This document shows positions 5,397 to 7,737 of a DNA stretch of 24,154 nucleotides, piece by piece; positions within the stretch are counted from its first letter, which is position 1; every line of letters starts with the position of its first letter. The translations under genes and the position numbers were made by a program. The notes under the pieces are model-generated. The model ran no database searches. It worked only from the letters and a program-made list of their open reading frames with translations, and was not told where the DNA came from. Source of the stretch: a virus (lineage: Duplodnaviria > Heunggongvirae > Uroviricota > Caudoviricetes); the IMG/VR virus record IMGVR_UViG_2537562172_000007, one strand, 5' to 3'.

Positions 5397-5631
5397 GGGC
5401 AGACTTCACCACATTCACCTCGCGGATGTAGTCGCTGCCCATCGCATTCATGATGGCCCGCTGAAAGGGCAGTGTTTCCCAGCGCCCTTCCTGGTATGCG
5501 GATTCTTTCGGGAGATAGTAATTGGCATCCGCCCATTCAACGGCGGTCTGTGGCTCCGGCCTGAACAGTGAGCGAAGCCCGGCGCGGACAAAATGCCGCA
5601 GCCTGTTAACCTGACTGTTCGATATATTCAC
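5365..5631 (-). pseudogene. terminase large subunit (lambda A) N-terminal fragment, about 82 codons
   Basis: 88-aa ORF MNISNSQVNRLRHFVRAGLRSLFRPEPQTAVEWADANYYLPKE... matches lambda gpA N-terminus up to ...ARVGY, then stops; overlaps the Nu1 3' end as in lambda. Confidence 0.8.
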
Positions 5632-6151
5632 TCAGCAACCCCGGTATCAGTTCATCCAGCGCGGCTGCTTTGTTCATGGCTTTGATGATATCCCGTTTCA
5701 GGAAATCAACATGTCGGTTTTCCAGTTCCGGAAAACGCCGCTGCACCGACAGGGGGATCCCGTCGAGAATACTGGCAATTTCACCTGCGATCCGCGACAA
5801 CACGAAAGTACAGAATGCGGTTTCCACCACTTCAGCGGAGTCTCTGGCATTTTTCAGCTCCTGTGCGTCGGCCTGCGCACGCGTAAGTCGATGGCGTTCG
5901 TACTCAATAGTCCCTGGCTGGAGATCTGTCTCGCTGGCCTGCCGCAGTTCTTCAACTTCCCGGCGCAGCTTTTCGTTCTCAATTTCAGCATCCCTTTCGG
6001 CATACCATTTTATGACGGCGGCAGAATCATAAAGCACCTCATTACCCTTGCCACCGCCTCGCAGAACGGGCATTCCCTGTTCCTGCCAGTTCTGAATGGT
6101 ACGGATACTCGCACCGAAAATGTCAGCCAGCTGCTTTTTGTTGACTTCCAT
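5606..6151 (-). CDS. nohA: terminase small subunit, Nu1 homologue
   Basis: 181-aa ORF MEVNKKQLADIFGASIRTIQNWQEQGMPV... matches lambda Nu1 along its length, including the N-terminal HTH. Confidence 0.9.
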   Translation of the reverse strand: MEVNKKQLADIFGASIRTIQNWQEQGMPVLRGGGKGNEVLYDSAAVIKWYAERDAEIENEKLRREVEELRQASETDLQPGTIEYERHRLTRAQADAQELKNARDSAEVVETAFCTFVLSRIAGEIASILDGIPLSVQRRFPELENRHVDFLKRDIIKAMNKAAALDELIPGLLSEYIEQSG

Positions 6152-6440
6152 TGTTCATTCCACGGACAAAAACAGAGAAAGGAAACGACAAAGGCCAAAA
6201 AGCCCGCTTTCAGCACCTGTCGTTTCCTTTCTTTTCAGGGGGTATTTTAAATAAAAACATTAAGTTACGACGAAGAAGAACGGAAACACCTTAAACCGGA
6301 AAATTTTCATAAATAGCGAAAACCCGCGAGGTCGCCGCCCCGTAACCTGTCGGATCACCGGAAAGGACCCGTAAAGTGATAATGATTATCATCTACATAT
6401 CACAACGTGCGTGGAGGCCATCAAACCACGTCAAATAATC
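6152..6440 (-). other. lambda-type cos region (cosB 6152-6328, cosN 6329-6340, cosQ-containing flank about 6341-6440)
   Basis: Reverse complement of 6152-6340 reads GGGCGGCGACCTCGCGGGTTTTCGCTATTTATGAAAATTTTCCGG... as at the lambda left end; 6341-6440 reverse complement matches the recalled lambda right end (...CACTTTACGGGTCCTTTCCGGTGATCCGACAGGTTACG). Confidence 0.8.
6329..6340 (-). other. cosN cohesive-end site (GGGCGGCGACCT on minus strand)
   Basis: Exact 12-mer AGGTCGCCGCCC on plus strand, the reverse complement of the lambda 12-nt cohesive end. Confidence 0.8.
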
Positions 6441-6539
6441 AATTATGACGCAGGTATCGTATTAATTGATCTGCATCAACTTAACGTAAAAACAACTTCA
6501 GACAATACAAATCAGCGACACTGAATACGGGGCAACCTC

Positions 6540-6773
6540 ATGTCAACGAAGAACAGAACCCGCAGAACAACAACCCGCAACATCCGCTTTCCTAACCAAA
6601 TGATTGAACAAATTAACATCGCTCTTGAGCAAAAAGGGTCCGGGAATTTCTCAGCCTGGGTCATTGAAGCCTGCCGCCGGAGACTGTGCTCAGAAAAAAG
6701 AGTTTCTTCTGAAGCAAACAAAGAAAAGAGTGACATTACTGAATTGCTCAGAAAACAGGTCAGACCAGATTGA
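6540..6773 (+). CDS. ynfO: small ribbon-helix-helix (Arc/MetJ-like) protein
   Basis: 77-aa ORF; basic N-tail, then a strand-helix-helix pattern (RNIRFP / NQMIEQINIALEQKG / NFSAWVIEACRRRL) resembling Arc-type RHH folds. Symbol from recalled Qin order. Confidence 0.65.
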   Translation: MSTKNRTRRTTTRNIRFPNQMIEQINIALEQKGSGNFSAWVIEACRRRLCSEKRVSSEANKEKSDITELLRKQVRPD

Positions 6774-6830
6774 AGCAATTTAGATAATCGTGCAGACTAC
6801 GCCCCCTCATATCACATGGAAGGTTTATCT

Positions 6831-7241
6831 ATGGATCAGGTAGTCATTTTTAAACAAATATTTGATAAAGTTCGAAACGATTTAAACTATCAATGGTTTT
6901 ATTCTGAGCTAAAACGTCACAATGTCTCACATTACATTTACTATTTAGCCACAGAGAATGTTCATATTGTATTAAAAAATGATAATACAGTGTTATTAAA
7001 GGGCCTAAAAAACATTGTGTCTGTCAAATTTTCAAAGGATAGGCATCTTATAGAAACGACCTCTAATAAGCTGAAATCCAGAGAGATCACATTTCAGGAA
7101 TACAGAAGAAACCTTGCTAAAGCAGGAGTTTTTCGGTGGGTTACAAATATCCACGAACAAAAAAGATATTACTATACCTTTGATAATTCATTACTATTTA
7201 CTGAAAGCATCCAGAAAACTACACAGATCTTACCACGCTAA
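6831..7241 (+). CDS. ydfO: DUF1398-like prophage protein
   Basis: ORF 6816-7241; ATG at 6831 has a GGAAGG Shine-Dalgarno 6 nt upstream, giving 136 aa; position after ynfO as in Qin. Confidence 0.7.
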
Positions 7242-7392
7242 ACCATAACGTCCGGCTTCTCTCACTCCTGAGCCGGACTGCATTGGTTTAATAAAAACCA
7301 TCAACAATTGTGATTTAGATATTCGGAACCATTCAAATATAACAAAACCCCGTAAAAACGAGGTTTATGGATAAATTTTATTATTGAATACA

Positions 7393-7566
7393 TCAGATTA
7401 AATTAATCTTGACATCATAGCTTTCAAGACCCGTCATTTTTTCCCGTGCGGTAAACTGAATACTGGTAACTTCTTTCCCGGTCTTTTTCTTAAGTTCAAT
7501 AATTTTTTTTGTTATATATTCAGAAATATCTGCTTCTGCTTTTGTTTTTAAGTTTTCAATATTCAT
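7393..7566 (-). CDS. gnsB: GnsA/GnsB family small protein, 57 aa
   Basis: Manually translated MNIENLKTKAEADISEYITKKIIELKKKTGKEVTSIQFTAREKMTGLESYDVKINLI; AAGAGGAAA Shine-Dalgarno upstream; absent from the ORF track because under 60 aa. Confidence 0.75.
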   Translation of the reverse strand: MNIENLKTKAEADISEYITKKIIELKKKTGKEVTSIQFTAREKMTGLESYDVKINLI

Positions 7567-7737
7567 CATTTCCTCTTTTAGTCTGTTATGACTTTCCAGT
7601 TACACAGTAAGTCGATTATATGGTGCAAACGTGTAAAAGATAAGATGAAACATCGCAATAATCAACATACGATAGTCTAAATTTTACACAAACAGACAAA
7701 GAGAATTTTCCTGAATTATCAATGCAATAGCATCAAA

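What the first reader, a model, noticed from the sequence alone, without database searches (positions are those of the whole stretch)
6540..7241. ynfO-ydfO: an Arc-like RHH protein paired with a DUF1398-type protein
YnfO has a strand-helix-helix pattern like Arc/Mnt/MetJ repressors and sits 57 bp upstream of ydfO on the same strand, on the opposite strand to the packaging genes. RHH proteins often act as antitoxins or autorepressors of two-gene cassettes. I recall a similar small-gene plus DUF1398 pairing in another lambdoid prophage (DLP12), which would point to a conserved module; no function is assigned to either gene.
Basis: inference. Interest (0 to 1): 0.5.

Follow-up and report, generated by a model that had tools for sequence, protein, structure and literature searches.

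The report
Cos-side RHH gene beside cargo gene
In the E. coli Qin prophage, ynfO very probably encodes a small Arc-like DNA-binding protein that lambda-like phages keep next to their DNA-packaging site, whereas ydfO is an unrelated, optional cargo gene that recombination placed beside it, so the two are not a toxin-antitoxin pair.

Summary
ynfO (6540-6773, 77 aa, DUF3950) and ydfO (6831-7241, DUF1398, solved structure 2HH8) lie 57 bp apart on the + strand, divergent from nohA/cos of prophage Qin. The ribbon-helix-helix (RHH) reading of YnfO is supported, but the scores are weak. The model has an extended N-terminus followed by two helices. The best structural matches are almost all RHH proteins, and the profile alignment to Arc is in register. 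The core is under strong purifying selection (dN/dS 0.03-0.14).

The two-gene cassette or toxin-antitoxin reading is not supported.
- Lambda and DLP12 carry the same RHH gene, but a 609-bp segment with the opposite-strand gene ybcW separates it from the DUF1398 gene.
- Only about 30% of YnfO-family loci have a DUF1398 gene.
- DUF1398 genes occur alone elsewhere.
- The YnfO tail changes at a recombination junction.
- GC content drops from 45% to 31% at that junction.
- ydfO keeps its own conserved upstream block, which contains a PdhR box.

What stays constant is position. The RHH gene sits between the lysis cassette and the packaging genes, on the opposite strand, whichever type of terminase the phage has. 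Phage satellites carry copies, some fused to a terminase small-subunit DNA-binding domain. The biochemical role of YnfO is untested.

The parts
5606..6151 (-). nohA, the terminase small subunit (Nu1 homologue), divergent from ynfO
   Evidence: Pfam Phage_Nu1, E 3.9e-101. Annotated as nohA.
6329..6340 (.). Cohesive-end sequence of cosN (AGGTCGCCGCCC, the reverse complement of the 12-nt lambda cos overhang)
   Evidence: Window 6341-6702 aligns to lambda 48502-48142 at 98% identity. The sequence was read directly. The overhang sequence itself is from established lambda knowledge.
6364..6370 (.). cosQ-like heptamer AGGACCC (reverse complement of lambda GGGTCCT, 48473-48479)
   Evidence: Invariant in six lambda-type cos regions. 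The identification as cosQ rests on my recollection of lambda literature and was not tested.
6378..6396 (.). Fur box (GATAATGATTATCATCTAC, 16 of 19 positions match the consensus), 162 bp upstream of the ynfO ATG
   Evidence: Consensus scan. This is the experimentally shifted 'nohA' Fur site, 233 bp upstream of nohA (PMC2189734). It is conserved in lambda, DLP12, L134 and L162.
6438..6470 (.). Imperfect palindrome ATCAATTATGACG / CGTATTAATTGAT. It is a candidate operator, but only a weak one.
   Evidence: the repeat finder pair I4: 13-nt arms, 85% complementary. The left arm is not conserved in L134.
6462..6515 (+). Best-conserved block upstream of ynfO (TTAATTGATCTGCATCAACTTAACGTAAAAAC...GACAATACA). 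It is the probable promoter and leader, with TTGATC as a -35-like element.
   Evidence: Conserved even in L134, where the flanks diverge. Promoter scores are not above those of shuffled sequence, so the promoter is inferred.
6540..6773 (+). ynfO, 77 aa, YlcI/YnfO family (DUF3950)
   Evidence: Pfam DUF3950, NCBIfam YlcI_YnfO_N, PHROG 949.
6576..6689 (+). RHH core of YnfO (aa 13-50): strand RNIRFP, helix A, the GSGNFS turn, then helix B
   Evidence: AlphaFold model. RHH proteins dominate the fold-search hits. In-register alignments to a CopG-family protein and to Arc. The conserved columns are I15 R16 F17 I25 F37 S38 W40 V41 A44 C45. dN/dS 0.03-0.14.
6703..6752 (+). A 50-bp Qin-specific junction segment that encodes most of the YnfO-specific tail. 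Lambda and DLP12 have 609 bp with ybcW here instead.
   Evidence: Homology blocks with DLP12 and lambda end at 6702 and resume at 6753/6757. GC falls across this point.
6754..6770 (.). PdhR box AACAGGTCAGACCAGAT, lying in the last codons of ynfO. It marks the start of the conserved ydfO/ybcV upstream block.
   Evidence: Genomic SELEX site reported in PMC7660256. GGTCAGACCAGATTGAA is invariant in Qin, DLP12 and lambda.
6735..6790 (+). RNA hairpin spanning the ynfO stop codon
   Evidence: -12.2 kcal/mol, z -3.5; arms found as pair I7. Function unknown.
6831..7241 (+). ydfO, a 136-aa DUF1398 protein and a low-GC cargo gene
   Evidence: Pfam DUF1398 E 1.7e-46. PDB 2HH8 E 2e-90. GC 0.30-0.34 against 0.44-0.48 for ynfO.
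7250..7278 (+). GC-rich hairpin directly after the ydfO stop. It is a probable 3' end or stabiliser but has no U-run.
   Evidence: -20.3 kcal/mol, z -5.2, and none of 200 shuffles folds as well.
7393..7569 (-). gnsB, convergent with ydfO and part of the neighbouring cspI-ynfN-gnsB cargo block
   Evidence: Pfam GnsAB_toxin E 3.3e-35; annotation.

Best explanation
ynfO and ydfO are two independent modules that recombination has placed side by side. They are not a functional pair.

YnfO is a small ribbon-helix-helix DNA-binding protein of the narrow YlcI/YnfO (DUF3950) family. Lambda-like phages keep it as a single-gene unit at the boundary between the lysis cassette and the packaging genes, transcribed against the late operon. 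It has a very basic N-terminal arm and a strongly constrained 50-residue core. I infer that it binds DNA as a dimer, most likely controlling its own cos-proximal leftward promoter and hence leftward transcription out of the cos region. That role is inference.

YdfO is one of several interchangeable low-GC cargo genes (ydfO/ybcV, ybcW, bor, gnsB and the csp genes) that fill the gap between Rz and cos. It brings its own upstream block, which contains a PdhR box. In Qin, loss or replacement of the ybcW segment joined the RHH core to this block, which created the YnfO-specific tail and the 57-bp spacing.

Shown: gene identities, the homology blocks, the co-occurrence statistics, purifying selection and the fold-level resemblance. 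Inferred: DNA binding, autoregulation and transcript structure.
For: - Identity: the window is Qin, and the Pfam assignments hold.
- Selection: dN/dS 0.03-0.14.
- Module boundary: window 6200-6702 is 96-98% identical to DLP12 and lambda, and 6753-7260 is 84-85% identical. Between them Qin has 50 bp where the others have 609 bp carrying ybcW. GC drops from 0.475 to 0.30 across the junction.
- Variable partners: the architectures seen are Nu1/YnfO/YdfO, Nu1/YnfO/Rz, TerS-HNH/YnfO/Rz, YlcI/YbcW/GnsB and YbcW/YdfO. In 54 of 57 diverse loci a packaging gene lies divergently upstream, but only 17 of 57 have DUF1398. Among GenBank phage records, 155 have a YnfO homologue and 43 have DUF1398.
- Orphans: YnfO homologues occur alone in Rouxiella and Tatumella chromosomes. 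DUF1398 genes occur alone at ycgX and in Klebsiella and Salmonella.
- Separate control of ydfO: the conserved PdhR box and upstream block are shared with ybcV and lambda p78. ybcV and ybcW mRNAs fall 10- and 8.9-fold in a pdhR mutant (PMC7660256).
- Mosaic hotspot: cos-proximal DNA is a recombination hotspot (PMC3945230).
Against: - Within Qin-type prophages the pair is almost invariant. In 79 of 80 loci YdfO follows at a near-constant 56-59-bp gap, even where the YdfO allele is only 76% identical.
- No terminator was predicted between the two genes.
- The two mRNAs change together in W3110 (ynfO -5.1 and ydfO -2.05 log2 in a fur mutant; PMC10164565 supplement). Co-transcription, and hence some functional coupling in Qin, is therefore not excluded.
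- The full-length model (RHH plus a long C-terminal helix) resembles the ParD, KacA and TacA antitoxins.
- No promoter scored above shuffled sequence, and no operator shared between phage types was found.
Confidence: 0.6

Rival explanations
1. YnfO/YlcI proteins act on the packaging-site region. They would bind DNA at or next to cos. Possible roles are shielding cos, insulating the terminase genes from leaky late transcription in the lysogen, or helping or limiting packaging. Satellites would exploit this by fusing the RHH to a helper-type terminase small-subunit (TerS) DNA-binding domain, to occupy the helper's cos.
For: - Position next to the packaging genes is conserved across two unrelated terminase systems: Nu1-type with cos 200 bp away, and HNH-cos-TerS type with a 42-bp divergent gap.
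- Five protein clusters combine DUF3950 with positions 1-53 of Pfam Terminase_2, and both domains score above their Pfam cut-offs.
- One of these fusions lies in a satellite inserted in a prophage terL gene. Its helix-turn-helix segment is closer to the helper TerS (34 of 53 identical) than to the satellite's own TerS (26 of 49).
- YlcI/YnfO genes are listed in capsid-forming PICIs (PMC13612085).
Against: - There are no binding data.
- No DNA motif is shared between the upstream regions of Nu1-type and HNH-type phages, although their recognition strands are identical.
- Chromosomal orphans in Tatumella and Rouxiella have no cos nearby.
- A domain fusion shows association, not mechanism.
- Lambda genetics has never needed this ORF for packaging (my own knowledge, not checked).
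Confidence: 0.2
2. One reading: ynfO-ydfO is a type II toxin-antitoxin-like or autorepressed two-gene cassette, in which YnfO is the RHH antitoxin and repressor and YdfO is the toxin.
For: - The RHH gene lies first, with a 57-bp gap, on the same strand, and no terminator is predicted between the genes.
- Linkage is near-invariant in Qin-type loci.
- The locus is in a prophage.
Against: - In lambda and DLP12 the two genes are 656 bp apart with a convergent gene between them, and YlcI there has only a 10-residue tail after the point (residue 54) where it diverges from YnfO.
- About 70% of YnfO homologues lack DUF1398, and DUF1398 occurs without an RHH gene.
- The tail is not conserved and arises from a junction.
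- PADLOC gives no hit, and YdfO's only family match is DUF1398 and no known toxin family.
- YdfO was expressed alone for NMR structure 2HH8, which has a single chain.
- TraDIS flags ydfO as 'essential' but does not mention ynfO in the main text, the opposite of what a toxin-antitoxin pair predicts (PMC5821084).
- The whole of Qin can be deleted (PMC3105296).
Confidence: 0.07
3. ynfO-ydfO is an iron-responsive leftward operon controlled by the strong Fur site beside cosQ. That site was historically assigned to nohA and nohB.
For: - The Fur box at 6378-6396 matches 16 of 19 consensus positions.
- It was gel-shifted and selected in vivo, and scores 22.3 bits for nohA and 25.3 bits for nohB (PMC2189734).
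- It lies closer to ynfO (162 bp) than to nohA (233 bp).
- It overlaps the best-scoring + strand promoter candidate, whose -10 is TATCAT at 6387-6392.
- A ChIP-exo Fur peak lies beside a nohD gene in another strain.
Against: - In a fur mutant under iron-replete conditions the genes are not derepressed. In W3110, ynfO, ydfO, ylcI, ybcW and ybcV all go down, and in MG1655 ydfO is unchanged at about 1-2 counts.
- That promoter candidate scores below the mean best score of shuffled sequence.
- The Fur box is absent near YnfO homologues of HNH-type phages.
Confidence: 0.08

Closest known systems
Arc and Mnt repressors of Salmonella phage P22 (the immI region)
   Same: All are small phage-encoded ribbon-helix-helix proteins. 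They share the N-terminal strand motif N-[IL]-R-[FW]-P, a G-x-x-N/S-x-S cap on helix B and a basic N-terminal arm. All sit inside the late region on their own small transcription unit (the Arc and Mnt sequences were recalled from memory).
   Different: There is no significant sequence homology (hhalign P 0.0046 over 25 columns). No ant gene is under obvious control: antirepressor genes are nearby in only 9 of 57 loci. The operator is unknown.
CopG-family RHH proteins and RHH antitoxins (ParD, KacA, TacA, MazE9-N)
   Same: These are the best structural matches. They have an RHH domain followed by a C-terminal helix, as in the full-length YnfO model.
   Different: Scores are weak. The downstream gene is not a ParE-type, GNAT or other known toxin. 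The tail is not conserved, and the partner is absent in most homologues.
Lambda morons bor and lom (lysogenic-conversion cargo genes)
   Same: ydfO, ybcV and lambda p78 lie in the same Rz-cos cargo region as bor. They are on the strand opposite the late operon, have low GC, are variably present, and are followed by their own 3' hairpin.
   Different: No phenotype is known for DUF1398. A promoter is inferred only from the conserved PdhR-box block.
Satellite packaging-interference proteins (PICI Rpp, SaPI Ppi)
   Same: The DUF3950-TerS_N fusions are satellite-encoded and carry a helper-like TerS DNA-binding domain. This suggests interference with helper packaging. The comparison rests on my recollection of the Rpp and Ppi literature.
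   Different: No homology to Rpp or Ppi was tested. The mechanism is purely inferred, and YnfO itself has no TerS domain.

Membership tests
YlcI/YnfO family (Pfam DUF3950, NCBIfam NF041551) | Match to the family model above the curated cut-off | tested here: met
   PF13132 scores 75.6 bits against a cut-off of 25. NF041551 scores 36.6 bits against a cut-off of 30.
DUF1398 (PF07166) | Match to the family model above the curated cut-off, and identity to the solved member | tested here: met
   157.5 bits against a cut-off of 22. The protein matches the 2HH8 chain except at one residue (E 2e-90).
Ribbon-helix-helix (Arc/MetJ/CopG) superfamily | Beta-strand, helix, turn, helix topology within about 45 residues | tested here: met
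   The AlphaFold monomer model has an extended segment at 13-18, a helix at 19-32, a 4-residue turn and a helix from residue 37. The core has pLDDT 79-84. The strand can only pair in the dimer, so DSSP does not call it.
Ribbon-helix-helix (Arc/MetJ/CopG) superfamily | Significant structural similarity to solved RHH proteins | tested here: inconclusive
Ribbon-helix-helix (Arc/MetJ/CopG) superfamily | Sequence or profile match to an RHH family | tested here: inconclusive
   Profile against PDB: CopG-family entry 9kkd at E 0.32, in register. Pfam RHH_6 at E 0.075 for one of 20 members. hhalign against Arc gives P 0.0046, and against Mnt P 0.11.
Ribbon-helix-helix (Arc/MetJ/CopG) superfamily | Conserved Gly-containing turn and a Ser/Thr/Asn cap at the start of helix B | tested here: met
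   G33-S-G-N-F-S38-A-W-V. F37 and V41 are invariant, and S38, W40 and A44 are at least 90% conserved across 20 diverse members.
Ribbon-helix-helix (Arc/MetJ/CopG) superfamily | Intertwined homodimer that binds DNA through the two-stranded sheet | not testable with these tools
   No multimer prediction or binding assay was available.
Type II toxin-antitoxin system | Two adjacent, co-directional, co-transcribed genes | tested here: inconclusive
   Met in Qin: a 57-bp gap and no predicted terminator. Not met in lambda or DLP12: 656 bp apart with the convergent gene ybcW between. Transcripts were not mapped.
Type II toxin-antitoxin system | The two families co-occur across genomes | tested here: not met
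   17 of 57 diverse viral loci have both, and 43 against 155 GenBank phage records. Orphans of both families exist.
Type II toxin-antitoxin system | The second gene belongs to a recognised toxin family or a defence model | tested here: not met
   Pfam gives only DUF1398. PADLOC gives no hit. NCBIfam gives nothing relevant.
Type II toxin-antitoxin system | The antitoxin has a conserved toxin-binding C-terminal region | tested here: not met
   Tails diverge completely after residue 50-54 and change at the recombination junction.
Type II toxin-antitoxin system | The toxin arrests growth, the antitoxin neutralises it, and the antitoxin is needed for viability | not testable with these tools
   Only indirect evidence exists. 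YdfO was produced alone for NMR. TraDIS flags ydfO but its main text does not mention ynfO.
Moron / lysogenic-conversion cargo (for ydfO) | Variable presence at a fixed phage locus, deviant base composition, own transcription signals | tested here: met
   Presence is variable. GC is 0.30-0.34 against 0.54-0.59 in nohA. There is a 3' hairpin with z -5.2. An own promoter is only inferred from the conserved PdhR-box block.

The most novel reading that the evidence does not exclude
The YlcI/YnfO RHH family is an unrecognised component of lambdoid packaging-site biology, and it includes an ORF that the reference lambda annotation lacks. On this reading the protein is a cos-proximal DNA-binding factor. 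It would be expressed against the late operon to guard or tune the cos and terminase region. Phage satellites have copied it and fused it to a helper-type TerS DNA-binding domain to compete at the helper's packaging site.
Probability: 0.2. Interest if true: 0.7.

Novelty: new member of a known kind. Interest (0 to 1): 0.38.

Why it matters
The proposed toxin-antitoxin cassette would have been a new defence or addiction module in a model prophage, and the evidence goes against it.

What remains is more modest but still useful. A domain of unknown function (DUF3950) can be provisionally assigned to the ribbon-helix-helix DNA-binding fold. The gene is under strong purifying selection. It occupies one constant place in lambdoid phages, beside the packaging site and antisense to the late operon. 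It is present in phage lambda itself, 200 bp from the right cohesive end, yet it is not annotated in NC_001416.

If the family acts on the cos region, as the satellite fusions to a TerS DNA-binding domain hint, it would add a new player to a very well-studied system and to phage-satellite conflict.

The work also corrects two loose ends. The strong 'nohA/nohB' Fur site is closer to ynfO/ylcI than to nohA/nohB. The reported oxidative-stress phenotype of 'YdfO' is a confusion with YfdO.

Tried and rejected
- **YdfO structure prediction.** The model came out at pLDDT 49.9 with a shallow alignment, so I ran no fold search on it and make no claim about the DUF1398 fold.
- **Internal repeat in YdfO.** The two halves align no better than shuffled sequence. 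Rejected.
- **Natural YnfO-YdfO fusion.** A 233-aa protein (P0235, 761 member sequences) looked like a fusion. The DNA has TGA at that position, so the 'W' comes from gene calling with genetic code 4. Rejected as an artefact.
- **Programmed readthrough.** ynfO and ydfO share a reading frame, separated by a single TGA. In 24 of 76 Qin-type loci the genes are out of frame or an extra TAG intervenes. Rejected as coincidence.
- **Mnt/Arc-like control of an antirepressor.** Ant or Rha genes lie near the YnfO homologue in only 9 of 57 loci. Not supported.
- **Shared operator.** No 8-10-mer is common to the upstream regions of Nu1-type and HNH-type phages.
- **Sigma-70 promoter.** The strict scan found none, and a position-weight-matrix scan gave nothing above shuffled sequence.
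- **Fur repression of ynfO-ydfO.** Public RNA-seq of fur mutants shows no derepression.
- **'YdfO overexpression raises oxidative-stress resistance'** (PMC4077768). The cited paper studied yfdO of prophage CPS-53 and never mentions ydfO in its main text.
- **Searches that gave nothing.** A literature search for lambda ribosome profiling found nothing usable, and the Liu et al. paper is not held. A viral-contig scan with P0208 found nothing.
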